DNA from: Escherichia coli
GTDB taxonomy: Bacteria > Pseudomonadota > Gammaproteobacteria > Enterobacterales > Enterobacteriaceae
DNA: 64,000 bases
NCBI RefSeq assembly: GCF_022846255.1
Contig: NZ_AP025682.1
Reading direction: 5' to 3' (one strand)
Positions 4,346 to 34,940 of the stretch are shown in pieces. Every line of letters starts with the position of its first letter. The stretch's first letter is position 1. The notes below the pieces were generated by a model, which saw only the letters and a list, made by a program, of their open reading frames with translations, was not told where the DNA came from and made no database searches. The position numbers and the translations under genes were made by a program.

Positions 4346-4347
4346 GA

Positions 4348-7429: not shown

Positions 7430-10400
7430 TTATCCAGCGATAATATAACTCCTAAGGTCATTACCCGGGGCAACAGCTCGCGCTCGCGTGTTTGCCAGCA
7501 GTTCAACTTGCTGCGGTACTCGCAGGGAAAAATCAAAGAAGGTATCTTCAATACAGCGCCAGTAGCTAAGCCCCATGTCGAGCAGGACATAATGCTGACT
7601 GCCATCGCTGAAGGTGACTGTCAGTTCTCGTCCATGCTCCGTACTCTGGTTATCCCCCGTTAACCAGCTAATTGCTCCCGGCCACGCTGGCCCCAGATAT
7701 CCTTCTTCAAGTAAAGTGGTCACAACCTGCTGACGATCTTCCTCATTAAGCCACGCGTTATAGAGAGCGTCGTGTTGGCGAGAGTTGTAATCCAATTTTT
7801 TGACGCAAACAGTGAGGCTGGCGCGTTCCGCCATTCCCTGTCCAACCAGCTCGGTTAAGATTTCACCTAACAAACGCGCCGTGAATGGGCTATTAAGATA
7901 ACGATCGCTGTACTCAACATGCGTTATCTCTTTGTGGCGGGTAAATGCCTGCTTCCAGCCAGCGTGCTGTTGCGTGACTAACGACCAGAAACGCGAACCA
8001 AAACCTTCCAGCGGCCCGTCCAGTTGCTCGCAGAGGTTGATGCGCACCGCCCCGGTGGGTAAGGCGGGCAGTAAATCTTCTGCACTTAAGGTCTGACCCG
8101 AGAAGGTTTTTCCGGACGTTCCTTTAAGTGTCACTACTGGTGAGGACGCACTTTGTCCCCATAATTCACCAGGTGCAACGGTAGCGCTGTCGTCTGCGGC
8201 CCACTGTTGGCTTTGCCCTTCGCGAGTCACCTGCGCAAGCCAGCGTCCCTTTCCTTGCATGAGTTGCGCAGTGGCAATGGATTTCACTTGTAAGCGTCCT
8301 CCCGGCATCGCCGCCAACGCGGAAAGCTGATGTCTGGAGCTATCTGTTAAGTTTGCCAACGGCGTGGCCACCAGCAACTCAACATGCCCACCGGAGGAGG
8401 CAAACTGGAGCAACTCTTTAAATAATGGCCATTGGGCAAAATCCCACTGTTCCTGCGGCCCCGCAAGAACCAGCGAGCAGGAGTCATAAATCTCGCTGTT
8501 CAGGCATTGCGCAATACGTAAACTCAGCGGGTTAGTTTCAACCCGGCTACCATCGCCGAAGTACTGATATTCTGGCGCGAGGTTAAGTCGCTGCAACCGT
8601 ACATTGGTAAGCAGGGTTAATGCATGGTGACGATCTAATCTGTTGACATAATGCTGACTGTCGTAGCTGAGCAAGCAGTGGTGACAGAATTTATCGCAAC
8701 TGCAATCGAGCAATTTTCTGGCGTAATTAAAGACATCAGCCCAATGGTCGATCAATTGCACTGCATAACCTGCACCACCCGCATTATTGTCGTAAATGAA
8801 GATGGAATATCCGGTATAGCCATTGATATCGCGCGCTTGCTGCGTCGTCACGCCCAGCTCAGTATTTTCGATACCCAATTTATGCGCTAACCCTTCACGC
8901 AAAGCGACCGCAAGGGATCGCGCGGCAACCTCATCACGGATCAACAGGCCATTATCATCATTGAGTTGCAGCTCAACCATATCTGTACGACTGCTATACC
9001 CCAACCAAAGATCTTTATGCACATGACCGTGGCACAATTTATTGCTCCCCTGACGATCGTTACTGCCCCCTCGCAACAGGTAATGCGTATTTTCCCTCTC
9101 TGGGTTCTTAAGATTTTCAGGGGTACGCTGGGGTTGATTTTGAGATTCTGCCCGACCACATGAGAGGCAAATTGCGTAGCCGTGCCCAAATTCCCCTTCA
9201 CTGAAGTGGAACAATTCCCCACTATGGCTAAAACGGTAACGTCCTAACCCAGCATCGGGTAAAGAAACCCACACCGAAGACGGTACAAGAACACGTGGAT
9301 CTTTCCAGGGAAGTTGTGCAGGCATGGATACATCATTATGCGCCTGATAACGGATATCTGTCGCAAAACCAACAGGCTGTAAATAACGCTTCACATCAAG
9401 TTGCTGTATATCCGCTTTGCAGTGACTACATTCGACAGGACGGGTAGTACTGGTTGCCCCCGCACCACATTTACGACAATGCCAGAACCACGGAATATGA
9501 TGATCGCCTGACAGCTCCTGCCCGCTGGCAAGTACCTTGCCAAGCATAATGCCCGAGGAACGATATACTTTTCCGCCCAATACCACATCTGCACCTGGAG
9601 CATACTCGCGTAATGCTGTAGGCAAATCACGGCTGGGCAATTTTTCAATACGACGAGAAAAGCTTTCTCCCCCTTCATTAGGGTCAGCCTGAGTAGCTTT
9701 TATTGCGCGACGTTTTTCCAGCTCATCTGCCGTCAGATAATTGAAATTGACGACGCCAACCGGGAAACCATGCCCCGGCAGGAACGCTTCACTAATGAGT
9801 TTAGAAAACAGATATGCACCGCGATAATCACGAAGCTGATAAGCGATGGCTTTACCTGCTGGCGTTTCTTCCCACGCGCTGTTATCCGCCTTCAACGCTT
9901 CGATATTTTCCAACAGTATCGCAAGTTGGCTTCTCCAGCGGATATCAACCTGCTGCATCATTGCTTGTGTGCGGGTCAAGAGCTGGGTTGCCGTCAATGA
10001 CATCAGGACGGTTCCCTGAGTAAGGCGTTTAAGTTTATCCGCCAGCTGATCGGCCTGGTTATTTAACCAATGGAGAAAACGAAGACACTGGCTCTCATCA
10101 CCTTCAAAGAACCATTTGCAACTCAGTTTTGTCGCATCAGGAACTTCAGCTCGTAAAAACAGACCTAAAACCAGGGCATTAACATGTCGTTGAACAATAC
10201 TGCTGCTCCCAAAACGAACCCGTGGCGCACTGGCAGTAGTGTTGAACGCCCAGAGGGGGGCTTTGAATACCTCCATTCCATGCGCCGTGTTTTTACATAA
10301 CGTAATGGCAGCAGATGCACTCTCTCCACGTCGACCCGCGCGGCCTGCACGCTGCAAATAATTTGCCGGAGCTGGAGGAACGTTGTTCATTGCCACCAAA

Positions 10401-13400
10401 CTCATACCACCAATGTCCACCCCCATCTCCATGGTCGTGGAGCAGTTCAGCACATTAACTTTGCCTGACTTAAATTGTTTTTCATTAAACTGGTTCTGCT
10501 CAGGCGTTCTCTGCGCAGAGTGTTCCTCCAGACGATACCAGCTATCTTTCAGGGCCAGTCGGTCGCTGCGAGTAGACCATAATCCTTCCTCGCGGGCATG
10601 TTGAATCAGCGCATTACTTTCCAGCCACTCCAGACGTTCTTCTCGGGCGATTTCTCCACCACCAGACAAACGCCAGTGACGTACAGGAAGCTCAGGCATT
10701 TCAATCAACACTGCTTTTTCAGGTGCAATTTCTTTGCTACCCGGCAAATACGGAGAGTATCCCAGTAACGTGACGTCTAACGCACGTCGAGTATAGGGGC
10801 AACGCCACACTTGCTTTGGACTGTAAAATTCAGCTTGTTGTTTAATATCCAGCTGATAACCCGACTCAAACTGACGTAAGCAGGGTCGAATTGCATCCCA
10901 GACCTCAATCATTAAGTGGTTAACTAACGATTTCCAGTGAGCCTGCTCAGGTTGTATTGCCGGAAAGACTGCAATTAATAGCTTAATGACCCGGTTATAA
11001 TGGCGATCGCGTATTTGTGGCCAAAGTTGATCACGTTTCTGCCCTTTGTTTTTTTTATCTGGACCCTGGAGCATTTTTACCGGGAAACGAGCCCCCATCC
11101 AGCGAGGGTATTGCTCGTTTTCGTAAAAAACGGCACTGTTTTCACGTATAAAGAAATCAAGAGTAATCTTCAATAAATTACGCCATTCCGCTAATTGCTT
11201 ATCGGGATCGGGTAATAATGTCTTCCAGTCCTGCGGGCAGGTTGTAACTTTATCAATAAATGGATAGTGAATGGCTACCAGACCCAGACTTTCGAGGGTC
11301 CAGGCATTTTTAGGGCGGCGACCAAACTCACTGTATAAACAAAAATCTGCAAACTGTTGTTTAGTAAGATCAAGCCCAGACAATTCTTTAAAACTGCCTC
11401 TCATTCTATCGGCAAGGTCCACACTGCCAACCAGCTGTTCAGACAGTGTTTGCCATGACATGGTTTTCTTCTGCTGATTGCCAGAGTTAGCCTGGAGTAT
11501 TTGCATCGCTTCAGCATGATCCGGGCTTAAGGAACTCACCATCGGCTCGATAATTTTAAGTGCCTGAATGTCCGCCGGGCTAAGCTCTTCATTAGCAACC
11601 ATCGCTTTTTTCAGCGCGTCAATAGAGTTTTTTAAAGGAAGGATAGAAAACTGGGTAATAAAACTCTCTAACAATGCGCAGTGTGCCGGGCTGAGCTTTG
11701 CTGATGGCTCATTAATATTGGCCAACTCCTGGTAACAAAGAGCTCGCAACGTCGCTTTATCGGCATCCTGCTGTAAGCGGGCAGAAATGCGGGCAGTGCC
11801 CTGACGTGAATCCGTAAAGGTGAGCAGACGTCGACCATTAAACGGTCCTAACTGCTCTTCTCTTGTCTGCGGTAATGGTGAAAACTCCAGCAGAGTAGGA
11901 ATAATTTCATTTAAAAAAAAGGGCGCGCCAAGTCGAAGCGGACGGAATAAAGGATTATTTTTTCGTTGGGTGTCACCACAGCAAACACAAGCAAAGGAAT
12001 TATTACGTCCCTCACCTCGAGATTCCGGTCTTAACAGGTTTATTTCATAGTGCTTTTGCGCTTCACTATCAATTTTCCCCGCCGTCGTTTCTTCCAGAGA
12101 AATGATATATTTTTCACCATCGATCGCAATCAGACGATCAAATTGAGAGTTATTGTCTAATTCGTCGTTGTCTTCATCTTCAGAATAAACATCTACATCA
12201 AGAGCAAATTCATCCACTTCGGCAGCGGCGGGTTGCGCTACCAACCAGTTCGTTCCATCACCGCGCACCTCCTCTTTGGCAGACAAATAAGCTGAACCAC
12301 ACCCGGAGCAACGTAAAACTTCAAATACCGGCGCACCACAGTCACAATATTGGCGCTGCTCAAACCATACCTGACCAAATGGCCAGTCACTCTGATTTAA
12401 TTCATGCGCTTTATGTGAGCATTGTTTGTTTGAACATGCCCATAGACCCGCCAGTGTTCTGATAAACCCATGCATACGTAATGGCGTAAAAGCCAGTTCA
12501 CCTTCTCGCGATCTCGCCATTAGGTCGAGGAGTTGCAGTAACTCACGGTGATTAATATCTGGCCAGGTTCTTCTGGCAACATTGAGCAACTCACTCAAAC
12601 GTACTGCCTGCCGTCCGGGATGAGTTAACGCCTGACGCAATTGCTGGGCCACACGGTAATGACAAAGCTGTTGGTAAAGATCCTGAGGGCTCAAAGATTT
12701 AAGAGAAGTTAAAGATGTGGGATATTCATGACGAATCAGCGACTCCGATACCCGCGGTATTTGTCGATAGCCGCGAACCACTTTGACATCACGTTCTGTA
12801 ACGCCCGCAAGATCAGCGACAAATTTAGCAAGCTCCTTATTACCTTCAGGAGAGTCTTCACCAATAGTGGCAGAGGTCGCGATAATCTGCACAGGTTTAT
12901 CTGTGCCAGGTCCAACATTGAAAGCCTGCATAACACGACGTAAAAGCAGCGCTAACTCAGCAGCCTGAGAACCAATATAACTATGGGCTTCATCCAGGAC
13001 GATATACTTTAACATCCCCTGAGACTTTTCGATGATTGGGGCATCTTTACGACGAATCAGCATATATTCCAGCATGGTGGTATTCGTCACCATGATGGAA
13101 GGTGGTGCTTCGTAAATGGCTTCCCGACTCAAAGCTTGTTCAGGTACTTTCAACTGATCTTCCTGAACTTCGTATTTGGTATGCCGGGTTTCGCCATTAT
13201 ATAGCGCGAAGCGTATTTTCCCCTTAAATCCGCGCGTCCATTCGCGAAGCCGCTCCTGTTGGCTGTTAATTAATGCATTTAACGGATACAAGAAAATAGC
13301 TTGTGTCCCTGTTAGTGACTGACGGGTCGATTTTTGCTGACGAATAAGATCTTCCAGAACCGGTACCATAAAGCATTCTGTTTTCCCGGATCCCGTACCG

Positions 13401-13753
13401 CTGCTCACTAACAAGGATTTTTTGTCTTCCAGAATCGTTCGCCACGCCGTAAGTTGATGACGAAATGGCACCGGCGCTTTGCTCAATGCATCAACCAGCG
13501 GGCTGGAAATTAGCTTGTCCCGCAAATCCTCCATTGTTTCATCCGCAGGCATCCAGCCGAACGTGCTTTCGAATACCGGGTCTGCAAGCAGTGACCCCTC
13601 CTGACCGGGAGGCTGGAAATATTGTGATTCCAGATAATGAGTCAACGACTTGCTCCGCAATGCCAACTGACTTACCACCGACCTCACCGCGCGCTGATGA
13701 AGCTGATTTAGAAGTGGCGCATAATGCAGTTGCTGAACGTCCATCAATGACAT
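7430..13753 (-). CDS. druE: Giant DEAH-box helicase with multiple Cys4 zinc-ribbon clusters (DUF1998-like); DruE-like
   Basis: 2107-aa ORF; Walker A SSGTGSGKTE, DEAH box (VLDEAH), helicase motif VI QRAGRAGRRG about 1000 residues downstream; CxxC...CxxC clusters (CSNKQC...CDCG...CSGCG; HCRKCG...CSHCK; CLSCG; CSCDKFCHHC). Size and domain content match the hallmark Druantia helicase; DrmA/DrmB-type fusion not excluded. Confidence 0.55.
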   Translation of the reverse strand: MSLMDVQQLHYAPLLNQLHQRAVRSVVSQLALRSKSLTHYLESQYFQPPGQEGSLLADPVFESTFGWMPADETMEDLRDKLISSPLVDALSKAPVPFRHQLTAWRTILEDKKSLLVSSGTGSGKTECFMVPVLEDLIRQQKSTRQSLTGTQAIFLYPLNALINSQQERLREWTRGFKGKIRFALYNGETRHTKYEVQEDQLKVPEQALSREAIYEAPPSIMVTNTTMLEYMLIRRKDAPIIEKSQGMLKYIVLDEAHSYIGSQAAELALLLRRVMQAFNVGPGTDKPVQIIATSATIGEDSPEGNKELAKFVADLAGVTERDVKVVRGYRQIPRVSESLIRHEYPTSLTSLKSLSPQDLYQQLCHYRVAQQLRQALTHPGRQAVRLSELLNVARRTWPDINHRELLQLLDLMARSREGELAFTPLRMHGFIRTLAGLWACSNKQCSHKAHELNQSDWPFGQVWFEQRQYCDCGAPVFEVLRCSGCGSAYLSAKEEVRGDGTNWLVAQPAAAEVDEFALDVDVYSEDEDNDELDNNSQFDRLIAIDGEKYIISLEETTAGKIDSEAQKHYEINLLRPESRGEGRNNSFACVCCGDTQRKNNPLFRPLRLGAPFFLNEIIPTLLEFSPLPQTREEQLGPFNGRRLLTFTDSRQGTARISARLQQDADKATLRALCYQELANINEPSAKLSPAHCALLESFITQFSILPLKNSIDALKKAMVANEELSPADIQALKIIEPMVSSLSPDHAEAMQILQANSGNQQKKTMSWQTLSEQLVGSVDLADRMRGSFKELSGLDLTKQQFADFCLYSEFGRRPKNAWTLESLGLVAIHYPFIDKVTTCPQDWKTLLPDPDKQLAEWRNLLKITLDFFIRENSAVFYENEQYPRWMGARFPVKMLQGPDKKNKGQKRDQLWPQIRDRHYNRVIKLLIAVFPAIQPEQAHWKSLVNHLMIEVWDAIRPCLRQFESGYQLDIKQQAEFYSPKQVWRCPYTRRALDVTLLGYSPYLPGSKEIAPEKAVLIEMPELPVRHWRLSGGGEIAREERLEWLESNALIQHAREEGLWSTRSDRLALKDSWYRLEEHSAQRTPEQNQFNEKQFKSGKVNVLNCSTTMEMGVDIGGMSLVAMNNVPPAPANYLQRAGRAGRRGESASAAITLCKNTAHGMEVFKAPLWAFNTTASAPRVRFGSSSIVQRHVNALVLGLFLRAEVPDATKLSCKWFFEGDESQCLRFLHWLNNQADQLADKLKRLTQGTVLMSLTATQLLTRTQAMMQQVDIRWRSQLAILLENIEALKADNSAWEETPAGKAIAYQLRDYRGAYLFSKLISEAFLPGHGFPVGVVNFNYLTADELEKRRAIKATQADPNEGGESFSRRIEKLPSRDLPTALREYAPGADVVLGGKVYRSSGIMLGKVLASGQELSGDHHIPWFWHCRKCGAGATSTTRPVECSHCKADIQQLDVKRYLQPVGFATDIRYQAHNDVSMPAQLPWKDPRVLVPSSVWVSLPDAGLGRYRFSHSGELFHFSEGEFGHGYAICLSCGRAESQNQPQRTPENLKNPERENTHYLLRGGSNDRQGSNKLCHGHVHKDLWLGYSSRTDMVELQLNDDNGLLIRDEVAARSLAVALREGLAHKLGIENTELGVTTQQARDINGYTGYSIFIYDNNAGGAGYAVQLIDHWADVFNYARKLLDCSCDKFCHHCLLSYDSQHYVNRLDRHHALTLLTNVRLQRLNLAPEYQYFGDGSRVETNPLSLRIAQCLNSEIYDSCSLVLAGPQEQWDFAQWPLFKELLQFASSGGHVELLVATPLANLTDSSRHQLSALAAMPGGRLQVKSIATAQLMQGKGRWLAQVTREGQSQQWAADDSATVAPGELWGQSASSPVVTLKGTSGKTFSGQTLSAEDLLPALPTGAVRINLCEQLDGPLEGFGSRFWSLVTQQHAGWKQAFTRHKEITHVEYSDRYLNSPFTARLLGEILTELVGQGMAERASLTVCVKKLDYNSRQHDALYNAWLNEEDRQQVVTTLLEEGYLGPAWPGAISWLTGDNQSTEHGRELTVTFSDGSQHYVLLDMGLSYWRCIEDTFFDFSLRVPQQVELLANTRARAVAPGNDLRSYIIAG

Positions 13754-16700
13754 ACTCCTGCTTGTTCAAAATAATATTGATAGATTACCCCTAATTGCTG
13801 CGGGGCTTGCTGATAGTGGAATTCAAAAAGCGCAGACAGTTGATGTATCAAGTTATTATCTTTTTGGGTTAACAGCGCTGCGACTAACATCAAATTAAAA
13901 CGTTTTTCAAGCCGTGAGTGATATTTATCTTCAATCCAAAGCTTATTAAAAACAGATTTTAACTCTGGAGTAATAGCACTAGACCAAAGTTCTTTAGGGA
14001 AGATACTGATACGCCCAAAGCTGTCGGGGTTCCTTAATAGCATCTGTTTAGCTTCATTAAACTGCTCACGACTAACAGTTGGCAAGACATTACAACCGGC
14101 TGGTAGGAGTTCGCCATATGTAAGTAACATATTCGCAATGGGAGCCAGACGACGATCGATATGTGCACGATGGTTCATAAAAGCAATAAAGGGTTGCAAT
14201 ATATGTAATGCTAATGTTTTATCGTTAATCTGTTTTTCCAGATAAGCCCAACACTTTTGAAAAACATCTTTCCAGATTGAAACGGGAATCCATCCCCATG
14301 AAAAGGGTAATTCTTCCTGTATATCATAAATCGTATCGCTATCACCAGAAAGACATGATGATATTAACAACTGAACAACTACGCGGTAATTACTCGAAAT
14401 ACCTCTGAACAAATCCAGATCCAGCAAGGATAAGCCATTATTCATTTTGTATTTCTTAATATACTCCGTTAATAAACAGCAATAATTTTGCAAAGGATTG
14501 TTATCTATTTCAAAAATTAGCTCATTAAAATATTTTTTTCGCTGTTCGGAATCCGCTTCGCATAGAGCATTAAGTAATAAATCATTTGTCTGTAATACAG
14601 GTAGCCCCCATTTAATTACTGGTGCAATGCGAGCTGTACCATCAAGTTTCCCCACAATTAACCATGGGCTATCCTGAACATTCAGAGCTGAAAGATCATA
14701 AGCAAATTCATCTTTTTTTAGCAACGATATGTGTAAGCCAGGATCCTTAAGAGAAATAGCATCAACAACCAGCTCGTCTATTCTATTTGCAGGAAAAACA
14801 ACAGAATTTTTTATATCAACCAGTAACCCTTGATCGTGTTCAATAAAACTACCATCGTAGCGTTTAATACTGAGTGTTGCTTTATCCTTTCCAAATCTGT
14901 CAGAGTAAAAATCAACACATAATGTACTATTGCTGTTCCATGCACATGCCAGCATAGCATTTAGCAAATTATAGTTCTCATAAAGTGAAATTTGTTTTAA
15001 TTTGTCATTGCATCCTGATAAAAGAGGAAGGTCGGCATGTAAATAACGGAATTTTTCAGCTACTGGATTTTCATCCAACAACTCGATATTAAGATATCCT
15101 CTTCCAGCACAAGATATGGTTAACAACTCAGCATCTATTCCATGCAAATGCGCTATAGATGCCACACCATCAAAATGAACAGAACCATCATGAGTTACAA
15201 ATCGGCCACCGCTAACCGGCTTAGGTAATAATAGTTTAAGATTAGAACCATCTTTCCAGGAGACCCGTAAATCAACGGTATTTTCCAGCATCTCCGATGA
15301 ATTATAATAAATAGCACACTCGTTTTGTGAATAATCGGACTTAAGTGTTACTTTTTCATTATTTGAATATTTGTCAATTCTAGTATCCGTTATACCAGAA
15401 AGCATTATGATGCCTTGCTGAGCACTCTCAGGTATAATATTAATATCGAAGTCTGTTGGTAAAACTACAACTTTACCGCTAAATAAAACCTCATCATTAA
15501 CTATTCGTCTGACTTCTATCTGTCCTTTTGGCATTTCTGATGCGACAGAATACCAGGCATTGTTACCTGAACGAATGGAACGCCAAAAAAGTTCTTTCTC
15601 CGGTACAATGCCATATTGCAGATCCTTTTTCCAACCGATCTTCGGCCAGGCTCGATGGACAGGATAATCCGATTTAACCAGTTCAACTTCTGTCGATTTA
15701 ATATAATATTCAATCGCAGAATCATAAAGTTGCTGGGTGCGAATTGTACAAACTGCACCATCATGTAAAACAACGCTAAATACTCCACTTATTTTAGTTA
15801 AGCTGCGTTCACTGTTTTTCAGCAACCTTGGGATATCAAACTCACCTTCTCCACTAATATCTAAATGGCTATTTTTCGGTAGCGAAATAAACAGAGCATT
15901 TAGCCTGGAACTCACAGACCCCATACCGACAAGTTTTAGCTGCGATTCACTCTCATTCATCGCTTCAAAAACCCAGGGGAGTTCTTCAGTAAGTTCATAA
16001 CCGCCTTTTGGAATTGTGTGGCCTAACAGAATTGGACCTTCATGAAGCGACAACGAGATTTCGGCCATTGCATCTGCACCAGAGAGCTTTTGCATCGCAA
16101 TAGGTAATAACTCGACCCGCCAATCTTGCTGCTCATAACGGCTTAGCATTGCCAACCTTGCCCCGCCATTTCTCCATTTTCCTGAAATGATGAGTCGGGT
16201 CTGCTCCGGCTGAATATTGCATTCAAACAAAGAGGTTAACTGTTCTGTACGCATTATGGCCGGGAATCGGAACCGGGCATCACAATACCAACTGTCATCA
16301 ACATCGACCCAGATTCTTTCAACCTGAAGACTACTTGCACTGCGTATTTCAGAAGATTGAGAAAGTAATCGCCTTACAATCTCTGCAGCATTCGCTTCGG
16401 GGAGAACGAGTGGAAGTTGAAGATGCCAGTCTGGAGAGAGCTTACGTAATGCAGAAACGGGATCACTGCTTTGAGGTGGATGCTCACTAAGTAATCGGCA
16501 GAGAGTCTCGCAGAATTCACCGGCTATTTCATAGACCAGTTCGTTTTGCATTGTGACAGGAATCGTATCGCCTAATTCTTGTGCAATTTTAGCGGCAGGA
16601 TATTGAGATGCTTGCCCACGAAGCGCCTGATATATCCTTCTGAAATAGGTAATCAAATAACCGCTCTCATTTTCAATCATGCGGATAGGTAAACCACCTT

Positions 16701-17103
16701 CACAAGCCAGTGTATGCAGATAACCCGAAGCTTGCCCCAGGTTTCTTATCTTTCTTTTCCAGTAGCGAATGCCATCATTAACCAGCTTCTGTTGATGAAC
16801 ATACGGAACTTTCCAGTCAATAGAATCTAAAATTGTGTCCCATTTAGGGTGTCCGACCGTATGAGTCCGGCGGATAAACTCTGCGGCATATATGCTAAAT
16901 AGAACATCGCTATAGGAAATGAATATCGTTCTTGGATAACTACGGGGGGCATATGTACGCAGTAGTTCTGCCAAACTTTCGTACTCTGTATCAGTACAAC
17001 GGTAAGCATATAACGCCCGTCCATCAGCTCCGGATAATGAACGGCGACTAAAAAACATGTTAAGCCATTGCAAAAGTGGGTTAACTGGAGTTTTCACAAG
17101 CAA
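13744..17103 (-). CDS. druH: 1119-aa protein without recognisable motifs, translationally coupled to the giant helicase (DruH-like position)
   Basis: Long uninterrupted ORF; stop overlaps helicase start by 10 nt; no catalytic motif recognised by eye; position and size fit the DruH partner of type III Druantia, but the assignment is by context only. Confidence 0.45.
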   Translation of the reverse strand: MLVKTPVNPLLQWLNMFFSRRSLSGADGRALYAYRCTDTEYESLAELLRTYAPRSYPRTIFISYSDVLFSIYAAEFIRRTHTVGHPKWDTILDSIDWKVPYVHQQKLVNDGIRYWKRKIRNLGQASGYLHTLACEGGLPIRMIENESGYLITYFRRIYQALRGQASQYPAAKIAQELGDTIPVTMQNELVYEIAGEFCETLCRLLSEHPPQSSDPVSALRKLSPDWHLQLPLVLPEANAAEIVRRLLSQSSEIRSASSLQVERIWVDVDDSWYCDARFRFPAIMRTEQLTSLFECNIQPEQTRLIISGKWRNGGARLAMLSRYEQQDWRVELLPIAMQKLSGADAMAEISLSLHEGPILLGHTIPKGGYELTEELPWVFEAMNESESQLKLVGMGSVSSRLNALFISLPKNSHLDISGEGEFDIPRLLKNSERSLTKISGVFSVVLHDGAVCTIRTQQLYDSAIEYYIKSTEVELVKSDYPVHRAWPKIGWKKDLQYGIVPEKELFWRSIRSGNNAWYSVASEMPKGQIEVRRIVNDEVLFSGKVVVLPTDFDINIIPESAQQGIIMLSGITDTRIDKYSNNEKVTLKSDYSQNECAIYYNSSEMLENTVDLRVSWKDGSNLKLLLPKPVSGGRFVTHDGSVHFDGVASIAHLHGIDAELLTISCAGRGYLNIELLDENPVAEKFRYLHADLPLLSGCNDKLKQISLYENYNLLNAMLACAWNSNSTLCVDFYSDRFGKDKATLSIKRYDGSFIEHDQGLLVDIKNSVVFPANRIDELVVDAISLKDPGLHISLLKKDEFAYDLSALNVQDSPWLIVGKLDGTARIAPVIKWGLPVLQTNDLLLNALCEADSEQRKKYFNELIFEIDNNPLQNYCCLLTEYIKKYKMNNGLSLLDLDLFRGISSNYRVVVQLLISSCLSGDSDTIYDIQEELPFSWGWIPVSIWKDVFQKCWAYLEKQINDKTLALHILQPFIAFMNHRAHIDRRLAPIANMLLTYGELLPAGCNVLPTVSREQFNEAKQMLLRNPDSFGRISIFPKELWSSAITPELKSVFNKLWIEDKYHSRLEKRFNLMLVAALLTQKDNNLIHQLSALFEFHYQQAPQQLGVIYQYYFEQAGVCH

Positions 17104-17314
17104 CCTGCCTTCCTTTGATACAATTCGTAACAGGTTACTATCATCATAAAAAAGCTCAACCCGATGAACTCGCTAAAAATGAGACAAATCATTTATATCT
17201 CGAAAAAACTTGTTACAATCATGAGCGCTACACCGAACTTAACCATATAAATTATGTGTGTTTTGTTTATTTTTTAAACAATTACAACTATCCATTATTT
17301 ACACAGGTATCAAA

Positions 17315-18967
17315 ATGTTAGCGCAGCTTTTTGAGCAGTTGTTTCAATCGATAGACTCTACACTGATCACCAATATTTTCATCTGGGCTGTTATATTCGT
17401 ATTTTTATCAGCGTGGTGGTGTGACAAAAAAAATATACATAGTAAGTTTAGAGAATATGCTCCAACCTTAATGGGGGCATTAGGTATTCTGGGTACTTTC
17501 ATTGGTATTATTATTGGGTTACTCAATTTTAATACTGAAAGTATTGATACCAGCATCCCCGTATTATTAGGCGGCCTAAAAACAGCATTCATTACAAGCA
17601 TTGTAGGTATGTTTTTTGCCATTTTATTTAATGGAATGGATGCTTTCTTTTTTGCCAATAAACGAAGTGCGTTAGCAGAAAATAACCCTGAATCTGTTAC
17701 ACCTGAACATATCTATCATGAATTAAAAGAGCAGAACCAGACTCTGACTAAATTAGTCTCGGGTATTAACGGTGATAGTGAAGGTTCTCTTATTGCTCAA
17801 ATAAAATTACTACGTACTGAGATTAGCGATTCCTCGCAGGCACAATTAGCTAATCACACTCATTTCAGTAATAAGCTTTGGGAACAACTTGAACAATTTG
17901 CAGATCTAATGGCAAAAGGTGCTACAGAACAAATTATTGATGCTTTACGACAAGTCATTATTGATTTTAATGAAAATTTAACTGAACAGTTTGGTGAAAA
18001 CTTTAAAGCACTTGATGCCTCTGTAAAAAAACTTGTTGAGTGGCAGGAAAATTATAAAACGCAAGTTGAGCTGATGTCAGAACAATATCAACAAAGTGTC
18101 GAGTCTCTGGTTGAAACAAAAACTGCGGTTGCCGGGATTTGGGAAGAATGTAAAGAAATTCCTCTGGCTATGTCTGAACTGCGTGAAGTGCTTCAGGTGA
18201 ACCAACATCAAATCAGCGAACTCTCCCGCCATTTAGAAACCTTTGTCGCCATCCGCGATAAAGCTACAACCGTATTACCTGAAATACAGAACAAAATGGC
18301 TGAAGTGGGTGAACTGCTGAAATCCGGAGCTGCAAATGTTAGTGCATCTCTTGAGCAAACCAGCCAGCAAATACTTCTTAATGCAGATTCAATGCGCGTG
18401 GCCCTGGATGAAGGTACCGAAGGATTCAGACAATCGGTTACCCAAACACAACAAGCATTTGCCTCGATGGCACATGATGTCAGCAATTCCTCCGAAACTC
18501 TAACCAGCACGTTAGGTGAAACAATTACTGAAATGAAACAAAGTGGTGAAGAATTCCTGAAGTCACTAGAGTCGCACTCGAAAGAATTGCATAGAAATAT
18601 GGAACAAAATACGACTAATGTAATTGATATGTTCAGTAAGACTGGTGAAAAGATTAACCATCAACTATCCAGTAATGCCGATAATATGTTTGATTCAATC
18701 CAGACATCATTTGATAAGGCAAGTGCAGGGCTGACTTCTCAAGTCAGAGAATCAATTGAAAAATTTGCTCTATCCATCAACGAGCAGTTACATGCTTTTG
18801 AGCAAGCAACTGAACGTGAGATGAACCGTGAAATGCAATCATTAGGTAATGCTCTGCTTTCAATCAGCAAAGGTTTTGTCGGTAACTATGAAAAACTTAT
18901 TAAAGATTACCAAATAATTATGGGGCAGTTACAAGCATTAATTTCTGCTAATAAACATCGAGGGTAA
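17315..18967 (+). CDS. zorA: ZorA-like MotA/TolQ/ExbB-family membrane protein with long coiled-coil tail
   Basis: Hydrophobic N-terminal helices (LITNIFIWAVIFVFLSAWW; LMGALGILGTFIGIIIGL; FITSIVGMFFAILF) followed by ~350 aa of heptad-rich sequence. Likely start at ATG 17315 (ORF track starts at 17258); first gene of a three-gene operon. Confidence 0.7.
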   Translation: MLAQLFEQLFQSIDSTLITNIFIWAVIFVFLSAWWCDKKNIHSKFREYAPTLMGALGILGTFIGIIIGLLNFNTESIDTSIPVLLGGLKTAFITSIVGMFFAILFNGMDAFFFANKRSALAENNPESVTPEHIYHELKEQNQTLTKLVSGINGDSEGSLIAQIKLLRTEISDSSQAQLANHTHFSNKLWEQLEQFADLMAKGATEQIIDALRQVIIDFNENLTEQFGENFKALDASVKKLVEWQENYKTQVELMSEQYQQSVESLVETKTAVAGIWEECKEIPLAMSELREVLQVNQHQISELSRHLETFVAIRDKATTVLPEIQNKMAEVGELLKSGAANVSASLEQTSQQILLNADSMRVALDEGTEGFRQSVTQTQQAFASMAHDVSNSSETLTSTLGETITEMKQSGEEFLKSLESHSKELHRNMEQNTTNVIDMFSKTGEKINHQLSSNADNMFDSIQTSFDKASAGLTSQVRESIEKFALSINEQLHAFEQATEREMNREMQSLGNALLSISKGFVGNYEKLIKDYQIIMGQLQALISANKHRG

Positions 18968-18973
18968 TCGATC

Positions 18974-19681
18974 ATGGATAAGATTATAGGGAAACAATTA
19001 CCTAAAAAAGATCAAGATAATGAACACTGGGTATCCATGTCAGACCTAATGGCAGGGCTGATGATGGTTTTTATGTTCATATCTATTGCTTATATGCACT
19101 ACGTACGTATTGAAAAAGAAAAAATTAAAGAAGTTGCCGTAGCCTACGAGAATGCTCAGTTACAGCTTTATAATGCTCTGGATATTGAGTTTGCAAAGGA
19201 TTTGCAAGACTGGGATGCAGAGATCGATAAGCAGACTCTGGAGGTTCGATTTAAATCACCGGATGTTTTATTTGGCTTAGGAAGCATAGAGCTTAAACCA
19301 AAGTTTAAACTCATTCTTGACGACTTCTTTCCTCGCTACCTAAAAGTTCTTGATAATTATCAAGAACATATTACTGAAGTCCGCATTGAAGGTCACACAA
19401 GTACTGACTGGACTGGAACAACGAATCCTGATATTGCTTATTTTAATAATATGGCACTATCACAAGGTCGTACACGTGCAGTATTACAATACGTTTATGA
19501 TATAAAAAATATCGCGACACACCAACAATGGGTTAAAAGTAAATTTGCCGCAGTAGGTTATTCATCTGCACATCCCATTCTTGATAAAACCGGCAAGGAG
19601 GATCCTAATCGCTCTCGTCGTGTCACCTTCAAAGTTGTAACAAATGCCGAGTTGCAGATTAGAAAGATTATTCAGGAGTAA
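18974..19681 (+). CDS. zorB: ZorB-like MotB/OmpA-family protein (single TM plus peptidoglycan-binding domain)
   Basis: N-terminal TM helix (LMAGLMMVFMFISIAYM) and OmpA_C-like motifs (IEGHTSTD, NMALSQGRTRAVLQY, NRSRRVTFKV); 7-nt gap after zorA. Confidence 0.7.
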   Translation: MDKIIGKQLPKKDQDNEHWVSMSDLMAGLMMVFMFISIAYMHYVRIEKEKIKEVAVAYENAQLQLYNALDIEFAKDLQDWDAEIDKQTLEVRFKSPDVLFGLGSIELKPKFKLILDDFFPRYLKVLDNYQEHITEVRIEGHTSTDWTGTTNPDIAYFNNMALSQGRTRAVLQYVYDIKNIATHQQWVKSKFAAVGYSSAHPILDKTGKEDPNRSRRVTFKVVTNAELQIRKIIQE

Positions 19682-19684
19682 GAG

Positions 19685-20788
19685 ATGAAATTATCTATCG
19701 ACATTTCAGAACTTATTCAATTAGGGAAGAAAATGTTACCAGAAGGAGTCGATTTTTTTCTGGATGAATCCCCTATTGACTTTGATCCTATAGATATTGA
19801 GTTATCCACGGGTAAAGAAGTTAGTATCGAAGATCTTGACCCTGGTAGCGGGCTTATCTCTTATCATGGCCGCCAGGTTCTTTTATATATTAGGGACCAT
19901 TCAGGGCGTTATGATGCGGCTATCATCGATGGCGAAAAAGGAAAACGTTTTCATATTGCCTGGTGCAGAACTCTTGATGAAATGCGCCATAAAAATCGAT
20001 TTGAAAGGTATCATGCAACTAACCGCATAGATGGTTTATTCGAAATTGATGATGGTTCAGGTCGGAGCCAGGATGTTGATTTACGGGTATGTATGAATTG
20101 TCTGGAACGACTTAATTACAAAGGAAGTATTGATAAACAAAGGAAAAGAGAGATTTTTAAATCATTCTCATTAAATGAGTTTTTTTCAGATTATAGTACC
20201 TGTTTTCGTCATATGCCTAAGGGTATCTATGACAAAACAAATAGTGGGTATGTCGAAAACTGGAAAGATATATCAAAATCAATACGAGAAAAGGCCAAGT
20301 ATACTTGTAATGATTGTGGTGTGAATTTATCAACCGCCAAAAACTTGTGCCATGTCCATCATAAAAATGGCATCAAATATGATAATCACCATGAAAACCT
20401 TCTTGTTCTGTGTAAGGATTGCCATCGTAAACAGCCCCTCCATGAAGGTATATTCGTTACCCAAGCTGAGATGGCTATCATTCAACGTTTACGTTCCCAA
20501 CAAGGGTTATTAAAAGCCGAATCCTGGAATGAAATATATGACCTGACTGATCCATCAGTACATGGTGATATTAATATGATGCAACATAAAGGCTTTCAAC
20601 CTCCTGTTCCTGGGTTAGATCTTCAAAACTCAGAACATGAAATTATTGCAACCGTAGAAGCAGCATGGCCAGGCCTTAAAATTGCAGTTAACCTTACTCC
20701 CGCCGAAGTCGAAGGATGGAGAATATATACCGTGGGTGAGCTGGTTAAAGAAATACAAACAGGAGCCTTTACGTCAGCAACGTTGTAA
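19685..20788 (+). CDS. zorE: ZorE-like HNH endonuclease
   Basis: HNH motif CNDCG...CHVHHKNG...NHHENLLVLCKDCH; immediately follows zorB (4-nt gap); MotA/MotB/HNH trio matches Zorya type II gene content. Confidence 0.7.
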   Translation: MKLSIDISELIQLGKKMLPEGVDFFLDESPIDFDPIDIELSTGKEVSIEDLDPGSGLISYHGRQVLLYIRDHSGRYDAAIIDGEKGKRFHIAWCRTLDEMRHKNRFERYHATNRIDGLFEIDDGSGRSQDVDLRVCMNCLERLNYKGSIDKQRKREIFKSFSLNEFFSDYSTCFRHMPKGIYDKTNSGYVENWKDISKSIREKAKYTCNDCGVNLSTAKNLCHVHHKNGIKYDNHHENLLVLCKDCHRKQPLHEGIFVTQAEMAIIQRLRSQQGLLKAESWNEIYDLTDPSVHGDINMMQHKGFQPPVPGLDLQNSEHEIIATVEAAWPGLKIAVNLTPAEVEGWRIYTVGELVKEIQTGAFTSATL

Positions 20789-20798
20789 ATTCCGAAAC

Positions 20799-20824
20799 TC
20801 CGTGAAAGTTAAGGCTTTCACGGA
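20799..20824 (+). terminator. Hairpin downstream of zorE (candidate intrinsic terminator)
   Basis: Perfect 10-bp inverted repeat tccgtgaaag / ctttcacgga with 6-nt loop, 11 nt after the zorE stop; T-run not immediately adjacent. Confidence 0.4.
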
Positions 20825-20998
20825 AGATAAATATAATTTTCCTGATTTGTGACTCAAATTACAAAAGTCGTTTATGGCATAACTTGTCTGTTTTTTTTGG
20901 TGTAATAGGTATAAAGGCATATGCTATGGTTAGCCTTATATTTAAAACTTTCCTCATACGGGTGAAGGTTAAAGATTGGTAGATAGGTTACAGTCACA

Positions 20999-21496
20999 AT
21001 GAATAAAGCAATAACGGTGCTTGCTATAATGATGGCTTCATTTTCCGTAAATGCGTATGTATTACCGGAAACGCCTGTGCCATTTAAAAGTGGTACCGGA
21101 GCAATTGATAACAACACTGTCTACATTGGTTTAGGTAGCGCAGGTACGGCATGGTACAAGCTGGAGAAACAGACCAAAGATAAAAAATGGACAGCGTTAG
21201 CTGCATTTCCTGGTGGACCGAGAGATCAAGCAACTTCTGCATTTATTGATGGCAATCTGTATGTGTTTGACGGCATTGGCAAAAACAGTGAGGGCTTGAC
21301 TCAGGTATTTAATGACGTTCACAAATACAACCTCAAAACCAATAGCTGGGTTAAATTGATGTCGCACGCGCCGATGGGCATGGCGGGTCATGTGACATTT
21401 GTACACAACGGCAAGGCTTATGTTACTGGCGGTGTTAACCAGAATATCTTCAATGGCTATTTTGAAGATCTTAACGAAGCTGGAAAAGATTCAACA
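20999..21496 (+). pseudogene. nanM: nanM (yjhT) N-acetylneuraminate mutarotase, 3-prime truncated (first ~166 codons only)
   Basis: Translation matches my recollection of E. coli NanM from the signal peptide through ...EDLNEAGKDST, then diverges into an unrelated 36-codon tail before a stop at 21607; full-length NanM is about twice this length. Confidence 0.8.
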
Positions 21497-21614
21497 TACC
21501 GAACGCCGGAGAACTGGACGACGACACCACGAAGCAGTCATTTCAGTCGGGGGATGATTGTAGACAAATTTGTTGACGCTATTTTGCGGTTTTGGCGTGA
21601 AGGGTGAGCATTCA

Positions 21615-22193
21615 TTAATTTGATTTATTTGCATCCATCAACGCTTTTAACTGCTCCGGCGAAAACGGTGGTTTGCGTCGGTGCAACATCGCATGGCAAT
21701 TAGGGCACACAGGAAGCAAATCATTAACTGGATCCAGCTGGTAATTCTCTTTAATGGCTGAAAGCGGCACCAGGTGATGCACATGGATAAAGCCTTCAGC
21801 GATATCACCATAGATCTTCACCAGATCAACGCCGCATACGTTGCACTGGCATCCATGATGTTCGACCGCTTTATCTCGGGCCTTTTTATCGCGTTCATAG
21901 CGGTTTACTGTCACCTTTATCGCCGCACTTTCAACGTATGTCTCCTGCGACGGCAACTCATCCGGGAACAGAACGTCGGCTATGGGAGCCGCAGCGGCTT
22001 TATCCAGATGAATATGAAATCCCTGCTCTATGAGTAGCTTGAGACATTTAGATTTTATTCCGCCGGTGAAATCCGCAGGGGTAAATTGCGTCCCCGTCAT
22101 CAATGTCGCTGCGATGCCAGCAATCGCCTTCGAGGGGTAACGTCGGCCATGAATACAACCGCGCAGGCTGGAACTGATGAGTTTCTCCCGCAT
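21615..22193 (-). CDS. HNH endonuclease (192 aa)
   Basis: C-terminal HNH signature HHGCQCNVCG...HVHHLVPLS...NDLLPVCPNCH; N-terminal ~100 aa unassigned. Confidence 0.65.
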   Translation of the reverse strand: MREKLISSSLRGCIHGRRYPSKAIAGIAATLMTGTQFTPADFTGGIKSKCLKLLIEQGFHIHLDKAAAAPIADVLFPDELPSQETYVESAAIKVTVNRYERDKKARDKAVEHHGCQCNVCGVDLVKIYGDIAEGFIHVHHLVPLSAIKENYQLDPVNDLLPVCPNCHAMLHRRKPPFSPEQLKALMDANKSN

Positions 22194-22333
22194 CCCATAA
22201 ATGGATAGCTTCGATGATATACCGCCGCGGAAGATGATCGGGGAGTTTATTCATGGAGAATGTCCTTATACGTTCTCAGAACAGGCAGCAAAAAAACAAA
22301 TGAGATCAAGGTAATATATCTTCACTTGCAGGC

Positions 22334-23263
22334 TTGAACAGCAGAAAATTTGCGAGCATGATCGCAATTATTTCACTGCCAGGGATATCAATGGCTTCCA
22401 GTAAATCGCTACAGCAGGCAATTGCCAATATAAAAATCTGGCACAAGGGTGAACAGCGCGCGCCGCATAAGCCATTGTTATTGCTATATATATTAGCGGG
22501 ATACCTGAATGGACATCCGCGCCTTTTCGATTATGGCTCGGAAATCTACGAACCTCTGCACAGTTTACTGGAACGTTTTGGGCCACAGCGTTCACAGTAC
22601 CGACCTGATATGCCGTTCTGGCGATTACAAGGCGACGGATTCTGGCAATTACACAATGCCGAGCTTTGCTCAACAGCAGGGAGCAGCCGACAACCACCAG
22701 TGAAGGAACTGACTGAATACCACGTTGCAGGCGGTTTCGATGAACAGCACTACGCCCTGGTAACTGGCAATAAAAAACTCATCAATACTCTGGCGCAACA
22801 GATACTCGAAGCGCACTTCACCGAGAGTATTCAGGAAGAAATTGCTGACGAGCTGGGTTTTGATCTCCAGCAAATCCGTAAACAGCGCGACCCGTTATTT
22901 CGCAAAAATGTATTACGCGCTTATAACTACCAGTGCGCGATATGTGGCTTTAATATGCGCCACGACGACACCACCGTCGCGCTGGAAGCGGCGCATATAA
23001 AATGGAAACAGCACGGCGGTCCTTGTGAAATTCCTAATGGCCTGGCGCTTTGCGCAATTCACCATAAAGCCTTTGATAAAGGATCGATTGGCCTGGATGA
23101 AAATATGCGGGTACTGGTATCAGATGCGGTAAACGGCGGAGGGATCGTTGAGAAACTATTCTGGGATTTTGACGGGAAAACTATTGCTTTGCCGCAGGTA
23201 CGTAAAAATTACCCTTATGAGGGATTTGTGGAGTGGCATCGAAAAGAGGTTTTTAGGGGGTGA
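22334..23263 (+). CDS. Two-domain HNH endonuclease (309 aa), N-terminal putative DNA-recognition domain; candidate modification-dependent restriction enzyme
   Basis: C-terminal HNH signature YQCAICGF...AAHIKWKQHGG...NGLALCAIHHKAFD; ~200-aa N-terminal domain (HKPLLLLYILAGY...) unassigned; divergent from the 192-aa HNH gene. Confidence 0.6.
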   Translation: MNSRKFASMIAIISLPGISMASSKSLQQAIANIKIWHKGEQRAPHKPLLLLYILAGYLNGHPRLFDYGSEIYEPLHSLLERFGPQRSQYRPDMPFWRLQGDGFWQLHNAELCSTAGSSRQPPVKELTEYHVAGGFDEQHYALVTGNKKLINTLAQQILEAHFTESIQEEIADELGFDLQQIRKQRDPLFRKNVLRAYNYQCAICGFNMRHDDTTVALEAAHIKWKQHGGPCEIPNGLALCAIHHKAFDKGSIGLDENMRVLVSDAVNGGGIVEKLFWDFDGKTIALPQVRKNYPYEGFVEWHRKEVFRG

Positions 23264-23373
23264 GGTTGATAATACCGCGCCCCTATAATCTTGCCATCTC
23301 GTGCATTGAGATGTTAAAAGCTACAAATGTTCTCCCTATTTTTCAATGTAGACATTTATAGCAATATCAAAAT

Positions 23374-25554: not shown

Positions 25555-25566
25555 CTCATATCAACC

Positions 25567-30003: not shown

Positions 30004-30005
30004 AC

Positions 30006-30902: not shown

Positions 30903-30904
30903 AA

Positions 30905-32371: not shown

Positions 32372-32417
32372 AACATTCTCCCTCTGAGACGGAAGCCACT
32401 ATAGTACTCCCCTGCCA

Positions 32418-32440
32418 ATTAAGCAAAGAAACTTTGCTTA
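32418..32440. promoter_or_regulatory. Perfect palindrome in the jetA/regulator divergent promoter region (candidate operator)
   Basis: ttaagcaaag-aaa-ctttgcttaa (10-bp arms, 3-bp spacer) followed by a T9 run; lies 47 bp upstream of jetA and ~105 bp upstream of the divergent regulator gene. Confidence 0.4.
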
Positions 32441-34927: not shown

Positions 34928-34940
34928 ATTTACATACTTT

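What the first reader, a model, noticed from the sequence alone, without database searches (positions are those of the whole stretch)
17315..20788. Zorya type II-like operon (MotA-like, MotB-like, HNH nuclease)
Gene content and order (ZorA with long coiled-coil tail, ZorB with OmpA-like domain, ZorE HNH) match the described type II Zorya anti-phage system. It lies on the far side of the nanM remnant from the tRNA islands, divergent from the DruH-like gene, which shows defence systems clustering on both sides of the nanM remnant.
Basis: partly seen in the sequence, partly recalled or inferred. Interest (0 to 1): 0.45.

Follow-up and report, generated by a model that had tools for sequence, protein, structure and literature searches.

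The report
Known type II Zorya defence operon

Summary
The observation and the interpretation both hold. Window 17315-18967, 18974-19681 and 19685-20788 (+ strand) encode ZorA2 (550 aa), ZorB2 (235 aa) and ZorE (367 aa). All three score above NCBI's curated equivalog cut-offs for type II Zorya and match the PADLOC ZorA2/ZorB2/ZorE2 models (E 1e-104 or lower). RefSeq annotates the same coordinates as zorA2/zorB2/zorE. At least 80% of the stretch is present in 529 of 5426 complete E. coli genomes.

ZorA and ZorE are identical to RefSeq proteins. ZorB differs by one residue (T105I). All 31 residues mutated in the published E. coli ATCC 8739 and ECOR19 systems are present at the same numbers, including ZorB D24, the peptidoglycan-binding residues and the ZorE HNH residues.

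The operon is divergent from druH/druE (Druantia III), with part of ARMADA II beyond. This is the arrangement published as O-island 172 of EHEC EDL933, where defence and synergy have been tested.

The likely mechanism comes from the literature. A ZorA5B2 peptidoglycan-anchored ion-driven motor senses infection and recruits the ZorE nickase.

The only mildly fresh point is fold-level evidence that the ZorE C-terminal extension has a Vsr/PD-(D/E)xK-like fold, which a 2026 preprint already suspected.

Verdict: already known, low interest.

The parts
17104..17314 (.). 211-bp divergent intergenic region between druH and zorA; presumed to hold both promoters
   Evidence: Coordinates. It is 99.5% identical to the O157:H7 locus. 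Sigma-70-like matches at 17115-17144 and 17192-17219 (+), but the scan found no more sites than shuffles give, so promoter positions are inferred only.
17315..18967 (+). zorA2: ZorA, 550 aa. Membrane core with three hydrophobic segments (about aa 12-36, 48-74, 81-114; MotA_ExbB Pfam match aa 51-110 = nt 17465-17644) and a long helical cytoplasmic tail (aa 106-550 = nt 17630-18964)
   Evidence: NF041792 1139.3 bits against cut-off 700, full length. PADLOC ZorA2 E 2.6e-302. Pfam MotA_ExbB 1.6e-6 plus apolipoprotein-like helical repeats in the tail. PDB 8VVI ZorA (type II, S. kujiense) E 7e-38. Only 4 Pro in the 435-aa tail, and 8/8 published mutated residues present. Identical to WP_000880882.1.
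18974..19681 (+). zorB2: ZorB, 235 aa. N-terminal transmembrane helix (about aa 20-44) with the ion-conducting Asp24 (codon 19043-19045) and an OmpA-like peptidoglycan-binding domain (Pfam aa 100-213 = nt 19271-19612)
   Evidence: NF041787 443.7 bits against cut-off 400. PADLOC ZorB2 4e-104. Pfam OmpA 1.3e-7. 8VVI ZorB E 3.6e-52. D24, H141, S143, R215, R230 and 6 other published positions all present. One difference (I105 instead of T105) from WP_000357807.1.
19685..20788 (+). zorE: ZorE, 367 aa. N-terminal Zn-binding domain (H90, C94, C136, C139), central HNH nuclease (about aa 185-260 = nt 20237-20464) and a C-terminal restriction-endonuclease-like extension (aa 256-367 = nt 20450-20785)
20800..20823 (+). 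Stable hairpin 12 nt after the zorE stop (CCGTGAAAG-TTAAGG-CTTTCACGG); possible transcript end or stabiliser
   Evidence: The 75-nt stretch containing it folds at -18.2 kcal/mol, z -3.3 against shuffles. No U-tract follows, and the terminator scan did not call it. Its function is inferred only.
13744..17103 (-). druH (Druantia type III), divergent neighbour and published functional partner of Zorya II
   Evidence: PADLOC DruH3 2538 bits, full length. NCBIfam STY4851/ECs_5259 family 970 bits. The druH-zorA junction is present in 506 E. coli genomes.
7430..13753 (-). druE (Druantia type III helicase-nuclease)
   Evidence: PADLOC DruE3 2179 bits, 9-2105 of 2107 aa.
20979..21496 (+). nanM' : 5' 497 nt of an N-acetylneuraminate epimerase gene plus 20 nt upstream; right-hand boundary of the Zorya-containing block
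   Evidence: NCBIfam PRK14131 residues 1-167 to profile 6-177 of 384. 94.6% identity to the intact nanM of strain CLSC36 over 517 nt. Matches native nanC-nanM at 93-95% in about 5000 genomes.

Best explanation
An intact, horizontally acquired type II Zorya anti-phage system. Five ZorA and two ZorB subunits are expected to form an inner-membrane, MotAB-like ion-driven motor. ZorB is anchored to peptidoglycan through its OmpA-like domain. When a phage perturbs the envelope, ion flow past ZorB Asp24 drives rotation or rearrangement of ZorA. The signal passes down the long pentameric helical ZorA tail, which recruits cytoplasmic ZorE to the membrane. The local rise in ZorE concentration allows its Mg2+/Mn2+-dependent HNH domain to nick phage DNA, and also host DNA, which stops the infection. 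In this island it also cooperates with the divergently transcribed Druantia III (DruH/DruE). The published route runs through RecBCD-dependent DNA intermediates that ZorE can cut. Shown here: the identity, intactness, domain content, key residues and genomic context. Taken from the literature on near-identical proteins: complex stoichiometry, peptidoglycan binding, nicking, recruitment and synergy.
For: Family assignment above curated cut-offs for all three proteins. Same gene boundaries annotated as zorA2/zorB2/zorE in RefSeq genomes. ZorA and ZorE identical to RefSeq proteins, ZorB different by one residue. 5, 1 and 8 residue differences from the ZorA, ZorB and ZorE proteins of an O157:H7 strain. 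31/31 experimentally probed residues conserved at identical numbering (against PMC11890865 and PMC13192584). Solved type II ZorAB structure 8VVI is a clear homologue. HNH fold and motif confirmed. Tight operon spacing. Literature: 5:2 complex, D24N, tail-deletion and peptidoglycan-binding mutants abolish defence; ZorE is a nickase recruited to the membrane on infection (PMC11890865). Druantia III-Zorya II synergy and ZorE mutant classes (PMC13192584). The OI-172 deletion mutants show Zorya II protects against Autographiviridae (10.1101/2025.09.22.677730).
Confidence: 0.95

Rival explanations
1. The operon is a type II Zorya by descent but is non-functional in this strain, either silenced or crippled by the ZorB T105I change or by lack of expression.
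For: ZorB differs at residue 105 from the protein shared by CLSC36 and O157:H7. No promoter could be called above chance. Inactivated copies exist in nature, for example IS2 in zorB2 of strain 201609 (H21).
Against: All three ORFs are full length and match their profiles end to end. All 31 functionally probed residues are intact. Residue 105 is not among the peptidoglycan-binding residues and aligns to Ser in the S. kujiense structure sequence, so the position tolerates variation. The intergenic region is 99.5% identical to that of O157:H7, where the system is active from its native locus (10.1101/2025.09.22.677730).
Confidence: 0.04
2. The first two genes are an ordinary MotAB/ExbBD/TolQR-type stator or energiser for motility or transport, and the HNH gene is an unrelated neighbour.
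For: Pfam sees only generic MotA_ExbB and OmpA domains. Weak matches to MotB/MotS models exist.
Against: Flagellar MotB/MotS/MotD models score 26-39 bits against cut-offs of 264-300, whereas ZorB2 scores 443.7 against 400. ZorA carries a 435-aa tail absent from MotA. The three genes are translationally close-packed. There are no flagellar, Ton or Tol genes nearby; the neighbours are defence genes.
Confidence: 0.005
3. It is a Zorya of another subtype (I or III), or a hybrid, mislabelled as type II.
For: ZorA1/ZorA3 and ZorB1/ZorB3 PADLOC models give weak hits.
Against: ZorA1 models score at most 50 bits and ZorA3 at most 28 bits, against 1001 bits for ZorA2. NCBIfam ZorB1 scores 33.6 against cut-off 400. 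No ZorC, ZorD, ZorF or ZorG gene is present; the flanks are druH and nanM'.
Confidence: 0.005

Closest known systems
Type II Zorya of E. coli (ATCC 8739 system of Doron et al. 2018 and Mariano et al. 2025; ECOR19 system of Wu et al. 2026; zorABE z5894-z5896 on OI-172 of EDL933, Li et al. 2025)
   Same: Same three genes, order, lengths (550/235/367 aa) and residue numbering. 31/31 mutated residues are conserved. The druH neighbour is divergent in the same way. ZorA and ZorE are identical to RefSeq proteins annotated as type II Zorya.
   Different: One ZorB substitution (T105I) relative to the common RefSeq protein. 5, 1 and 8 residue differences from the ZorA, ZorB and ZorE proteins of an O157:H7 strain. 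I could not locate the ATCC 8739 locus to align it directly.
Sulfuricurvum kujiense type II ZorAB (PDB 8VVI, 5:2 complex)
   Same: Clear sequence homologues of both subunits (E 7e-38 and 3.6e-52). [quoted passage not shown]
   Different: S. kujiense ZorA is 378 aa, so the E. coli tail is about 170 aa longer. There is no ZorE structure in the PDB by sequence search.
Type I Zorya (ZorABCD; PDB 8QYD-series and 8VVN)
   Same: Same ZorAB motor principle: peptidoglycan anchoring, a conserved Asp, and a tail that recruits a nuclease (PMC11890865).
   Different: Only weak similarity (ZorA E 4e-5; ZorB1 model 33.6 bits). ZorA is larger. The effectors are ZorC/ZorD (SNF2 helicase with Mrr-like nuclease) instead of the single HNH protein ZorE.
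Flagellar stator MotAB and relatives (ExbBD, TolQR)
   Same: MotA_ExbB channel domain, a single-pass partner with a key Asp, and an OmpA-like peptidoglycan-binding domain.
   Different: No rotor or transport partner. There is a long cytoplasmic tail, the scores are far below the MotB cut-offs, and the output is nuclease recruitment rather than torque on a flagellum.
Vsr-like / PD-(D/E)xK nuclease domains (PvuRts1I, AbaSI, Vsr), for the ZorE C-terminal extension only

Membership tests
Zorya type II (ZorA2-ZorB2-ZorE) | ZorA: MotA/ExbB-type membrane subunit with a long C-terminal helical cytoplasmic tail | tested here: met
   NF041792 equivalog 1139.3 bits (cut-off 700), 1-550/550. PADLOC ZorA2 E 2.6e-302. 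Pfam MotA_ExbB aa 51-110 and helical-repeat hits across aa 171-503. Three hydrophobic segments and a Pro-poor 435-aa tail.
Zorya type II (ZorA2-ZorB2-ZorE) | ZorB: N-terminal transmembrane helix with the conserved ion-conducting Asp, plus a C-terminal OmpA-like peptidoglycan-binding domain | tested here: met
   NF041787 443.7 bits (cut-off 400). PADLOC ZorB2 4e-104. D24 present, hydrophobic segment aa 20-44. Pfam OmpA aa 100-213. H141, S143, R215 and R230 present.
Zorya type II (ZorA2-ZorB2-ZorE) | Third gene is ZorE, an HNH endonuclease | tested here: met
Zorya type II (ZorA2-ZorB2-ZorE) | Co-directional zorA-zorB-zorE operon, with no zorC/zorD (type I) or zorF/zorG (type III) | tested here: met
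   Gaps of 6 and 3 nt on one strand. The flanks are druH and nanM'. No neighbour is assigned to ZorC/D/F/G; only a weak SNF2-domain match of ArmA to ZorD1, 53 bits.
Zorya type II (ZorA2-ZorB2-ZorE) | Confers resistance to phage, dependent on ion flux, peptidoglycan binding, the ZorA tail and the ZorE nuclease | not testable with these tools
   Shown experimentally for the ATCC 8739, ECOR19 and EDL933 systems (PMC11890865; PMC13192584; 10.1101/2025.09.22.677730). Here only the conservation of the 31 probed residues could be checked.
Zorya type II (ZorA2-ZorB2-ZorE) | ZorA5:ZorB2 complex | not testable with these tools
   Solved for the S. kujiense homologue 8VVI (PMC11890865). Homology to both chains is shown.
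OI-172-type defence island (ARMADA II - Druantia III - Zorya II) | armABCD, druHE and divergent zorABE adjacent to one another | tested here: met
   armA 4348-7206 (DrmD-like). armB open from 4399 to the left end of the window. DruE3 and DruH3. armC and armD lie outside the window but are present in the 99.9% identical CLSC36 locus.
Flagellar stator MotAB | Scores above the MotB/MotA family cut-offs; flagellar gene context | tested here: not met
   MotB PRK06667 35.9 bits against 300. MotS 38.9 against 264. MotD 26.4 against 283. No flagellar genes in the neighbourhood.
Zorya type I | ZorA1/ZorB1 profiles and the ZorC/ZorD effectors | tested here: not met
   ZorB1 NF041788 33.6 bits against 400. 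ZorA1 PADLOC models at most 49.9 bits. zorC and zorD are absent.

The most novel reading that the evidence does not exclude
The most novel reading not excluded: the about 110-residue C-terminal extension of this ZorE (aa 256-367), which I find to have a Vsr/PD-(D/E)xK-like restriction-endonuclease fold, is a second functional DNA-cleaving or DNA-structure-recognising module. It would hard-wire Zorya II to the neighbouring Druantia III, for example by recognising DruE/RecBCD-generated intermediates or supplying second-strand cleavage. The OI-172 pair would then be one composite system rather than two independent ones. A 2026 preprint already raises this possibility from sequence conservation, so even if true the novelty here is limited to the fold assignment.
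Probability: 0.2. Interest if true: 0.3.

Novelty: already known. Interest (0 to 1): 0.1.

Why it matters
It matters little as a discovery. The system is named by the standard NCBI annotation pipeline and at least 80% of the stretch is present in about one in ten complete E. coli genomes. It has also been dissected structurally and genetically in near-identical form. Its practical value is descriptive. It marks this strain as carrying the OI-172-type defence block (ARMADA II, Druantia III, Zorya II). In EHEC that block accounts for most resistance to a broad phage panel, with Zorya II adding protection against T7-like podoviruses, which is relevant to phage-therapy host-range prediction. The window also shows how defence islands stack up between leuX and the nan/fim region.

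Tried and rejected
- **Direct alignment to ATCC 8739 proteins.** I looked for the locus in NC_010468.1 around leuX/fim and the hsd 'immigration control' region. It is not there, and the search tool lists only the top rows of 593 hits. I used concordance of residue numbers and identities instead. The Doron 2018 paper is not held under the id I tried.
- **Promoter/terminator scan.** It found no more sites than shuffles give. The hairpin after zorE is stable but lacks a U-tract, so I do not call it a terminator.
- **Rfam on the whole window.** Only the tRNA was found.
- **Repeat search over 16500-22500.** Only short, chance-level repeats were found.
- **ZorE C-terminal domain.** There was no Pfam hit for any of 34 members and no PDB profile hit. 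Only the fold comparison was informative.
- **Alternative GTG start for ZorA at 17258 (569 aa).** Rejected. The NCBIfam profile aligns 1-550/550 from the ATG at 17315, and PGAP uses the same start.
Full report
**1. Observation**

- 17315-18967: 550 aa from the ATG. The mechanical ORF begins at a GTG at 17258, but no evidence supports those 19 extra residues.
- 18974-19681: 235 aa.
- 19685-20788: 367 aa.

The genes are separated by 6 and 3 nt, and each has a purine-rich Shine-Dalgarno-like motif 7-10 nt upstream. G+C across 17-21 kb is 35-40%, against about 50% in the core-like parts of the window, as expected for acquired DNA.

**2. Identity**

- NCBIfam curated equivalog models name the proteins type II Zorya ZorA2 (1139.3 bits, cut-off 700, aligned 1-550 of 550), ZorB2 (443.7 bits, cut-off 400) and ZorE (691.3 bits, cut-off 600).
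- PADLOC gives ZorA2 E 2.6e-302, ZorB2 4e-104 and ZorE2 1.9e-176. Type I and III models score far lower.
- Pfam sees only the generic domains: MotA_ExbB at ZorA 51-110, OmpA at ZorB 100-213, and no significant HNH hit on ZorE.
  - 13 PHROG families annotated as HNH endonuclease match within residues 129-272, mostly about 185-260, with E down to 2.7e-9.
  - The sequence carries C208xxC211, H225-H226, N238 and C243xxC246-H247.
  - An AlphaFold2 model built on 65 homologues has mean pLDDT 90.6.
- The solved type II ZorAB complex of Sulfuricurvum kujiense (8VVI) is a clear homologue of both ZorA (E 7e-38) and ZorB (E 3.6e-52).

**3. How common and how close to tested systems**

The 3.8-kb stretch is found in 593 of 5426 complete E. 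coli genomes, and 529 of them hold at least 80% of it. The stretch is up to 99.9% identical to the best-matching genomes. It is annotated there as zorA2, zorB2 and zorE at the same boundaries.

| Comparison | ZorA | ZorB | ZorE |
|---|---|---|---|
| RefSeq proteins of strain CLSC36 | identical (WP_000880882.1) | T105I (vs WP_000357807.1) | identical (WP_000777273.1) |
| O157:H7 strain TX 376-2 | 5 differences | 1 difference | 8 differences |

Published mutagenesis covers the E. coli ATCC 8739 system (PMC11890865 and its source data) and the ECOR19 system (PMC13192584). Together they name these residues:
- ZorA (8): A210, V237, Q244, I282, T309, L346, E366, E402.
- ZorB (11): D24, E139, H141, T142, S143, D145, K188, Y196, R215, R230, I232.
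- ZorE (12): H90, E99, Y109, Y189, H226, K231, N234, H235, N238, L239, H247, H253.

All 31 are present at the same numbers here. The published deletion end-points (ZorA delta106-550, ZorB delta45-235) imply the same protein lengths. I could not find the ATCC 8739 locus itself for a direct alignment.

**4. Context**

- The operon is divergent, across a 211-bp gap, from druH (13744-17103) and druE (7430-13753). Both are full-length matches to the PADLOC Druantia III models.
- Further left lie a DrmD-like SNF2 helicase (4348-7206) and a reading frame open from 4399 to the left end of the window. In the 99.9% identical strain CLSC36 these correspond to a four-gene cluster: helicase, DNA methyltransferase, large helicase and UvrD-like helicase.
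- This is the arrangement published as the ARMADA II - Druantia III - Zorya II defence island on O-island 172 of EHEC EDL933. [quoted passage not shown]
- The druH-zorA junction occurs in 506 genomes, so nearly all E. coli copies of this Zorya II allele sit next to Druantia III.
- To the right lies a 5' fragment of nanM (20979-21496), followed by:
  - an HNH protein (21615-22193);
  - a phosphorothioated-DNA-binding restriction endonuclease (22334-23263; 437.9 bits, cut-off 180);
  - a PDC-S11 candidate (23374-24372);
  - a type III Wadjet (24499-32371);
  - a WYL protein (32547-33440);
  - a truncated integrase (33949-34818);
  - a second island with a methyltransferase/restriction pair, a relaxase-like gene, recombinases and a P4-type integrase next to tRNA-Leu(CAA) at 53030-53114.
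- One refinement. In CLSC36 an intact nanC-nanM, followed by a truncated nanS, lies about 33 kb to the left, and the fragment here is only 94.6% identical to it. The fragment is a second partial copy that brackets the island. It is not the wreck of the resident gene.

**5. Mechanism**

What is shown here:
- The genes are intact.
- ZorA has three hydrophobic segments and a Pro-poor helical tail of 435 residues.
- ZorB has a single transmembrane segment carrying D24 and an OmpA-like domain with the four residues needed for peptidoglycan binding.
- ZorE has a Zn-site N-terminal domain, an HNH core and a C-terminal extension.

What is taken from the literature on near-identical proteins:
- ZorA and ZorB form a 5:2 MotAB-like complex.
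- D24N, the tail deletion and the peptidoglycan-binding mutants abolish defence.
- ZorE is a monomeric Mg2+/Mn2+-stimulated nickase.
- Under native expression ZorE is cytoplasmic, and ZorAB draws it to the membrane only during infection. Phage and host DNA are then nicked (PMC11890865).
- With Druantia III the defence becomes synergistic in a RecBCD-dependent, phage-specific way (PMC13192584).
- In EDL933, Zorya II chiefly protects against Autographiviridae.

The sensing step (envelope or peptidoglycan perturbation) and the way the tail transmits the signal remain models.

**6. ZorE C-terminal extension**

- The short PADLOC ZorE2 models (267-283 positions) end at about residue 258-275 of this protein. 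The 375-position model covers it fully. This is therefore the long form, with an extra domain of about 100 residues.
- Across 65 long-form homologues at 37-85% identity, R270, W281, P307, W328 and W345 are invariant. D289, A327 and an acidic residue at 325 are nearly so.
- The domain has no Pfam or PDB sequence match.
- The result agrees with the 2026 preprint, which notes that 90% of Druantia-associated ZorE proteins carry a C-terminal 'nuclease-like' region reminiscent of PD-(D/E)xK. I cannot tell whether it is catalytically active.

**7. Regulatory signals**

- The promoter and terminator scans gave no more sites than shuffled sequence.
- A stable hairpin lies 12 nt after the zorE stop (20800-20823). 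The 75-nt stretch containing it folds at -18.2 kcal/mol (z -3.3), but no U-tract follows.
- Rfam finds nothing in the window except the tRNA.
- Repeats around the operon are short and at chance level.

**8. Verdict**

The locus is a member of a known, experimentally characterised and routinely annotated system, in its usual E. coli neighbourhood. Novelty: already known. Interest is low, at 0.1. The residual points of mild interest are the fold of the ZorE C-terminal domain, the private ZorB T105I substitution, and the nan-bracketed, stacked structure of the islands.

Noticed in passing
window 20979-21661; L004 11128-11644 and 13170-13353: The nanM fragment is a second partial copy, 94.6% identical to the intact nanM that lies about 33 kb to the left in the near-identical strain CLSC36. 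The 172 nt following the fragment (21490-21661) are 81% identical to the sequence following the truncated nanS on the left side of the island. The repeated boundary sequence suggests two elements inserted in tandem at the nan locus.
   Followed up: partly
window 20450-20785 (ZorE aa 256-367): [quoted passage not shown] It has no Pfam or PDB sequence match. Conserved residues are R270, W281, D289, P307, E/D325, W328 and W345.
   Followed up: yes
window 19286-19288 (ZorB codon 105): ZorB has Ile at position 105 where the RefSeq protein shared by CLSC36 and O157:H7 (WP_000357807.1) has Thr. It is the only difference in the three Zorya proteins from the closest genome. Its effect is unknown.
   Followed up: no
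window 18974-19048 (ZorB residues 1-25): The NCBIfam ZorB2 equivalog model NF041787 (210 positions) starts at residue 26 of the 235-aa protein. It therefore leaves out the functionally essential Asp24 and part of the transmembrane helix. The PADLOC model covers residues 6-235.
   Followed up: no
window 1-7206: Partial ARMADA II. armA (4348-7206, - strand, DrmD-like SNF2 helicase) is followed by a reading frame open from 4399 to the left end of the window (armB methyltransferase, cut by the window edge). Window 312-4400 is 98.6% identical to CLSC36, but 1-311 has no megablast match, and G+C drops to 39% in 1-1000. This is possibly a variable specificity region of the methyltransferase.
   Followed up: partly
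window 21615-24372: Three further defence-type genes lie just right of nanM'. They are an HNH protein (21615-22193, -), a phosphorothioated-DNA-binding restriction endonuclease (22334-23263, +; NF045808 437.9 bits against 180) and a PADLOC candidate PDC-S11 protein (23374-24372, -; E 9e-114), which RefSeq annotates only as 'membrane protein'.
   Followed up: partly
window 24499-33440: Type III Wadjet: JetD3 24499-25554, JetC3 25567-30003, a presumed JetB 30006-30902 (no PADLOC or NCBIfam hit at E 1e-5) and JetA3 30905-32371, all on the - strand. A divergent WYL-domain protein lies at 32547-33440.
   Followed up: partly
window 33949-53114: Stacked leuX islands. A truncated P4-type integrase lies at 33949-34818 (-). 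A low-G+C block (31-35%) follows, with a type II methyltransferase (35686-37371), a restriction-enzyme-like protein (37364-39673), a relaxase-like protein (42185-43372) and two tyrosine recombinases (47385-49905). A full integrase (51593-52840, -) sits next to tRNA-Leu(CAA) at 53030-53114.
   Followed up: partly
NZ_CP048107.1 4442106-4447233 (hit H21): In E. coli strain 201609 the same operon carries an IS2 insertion that splits zorB2 into two 'OmpA family protein' fragments, a naturally inactivated copy. Seven of the 597 matching places are on plasmids.
   Followed up: no
window 20800-20823: A perfect 9-bp-stem hairpin sits 12 nt after the zorE stop. The predicted fold extends it to 11 pairs. 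The 75-nt stretch containing it folds at -18.2 kcal/mol (z -3.3), with no U-tract following. Its function is unknown.
   Followed up: partly
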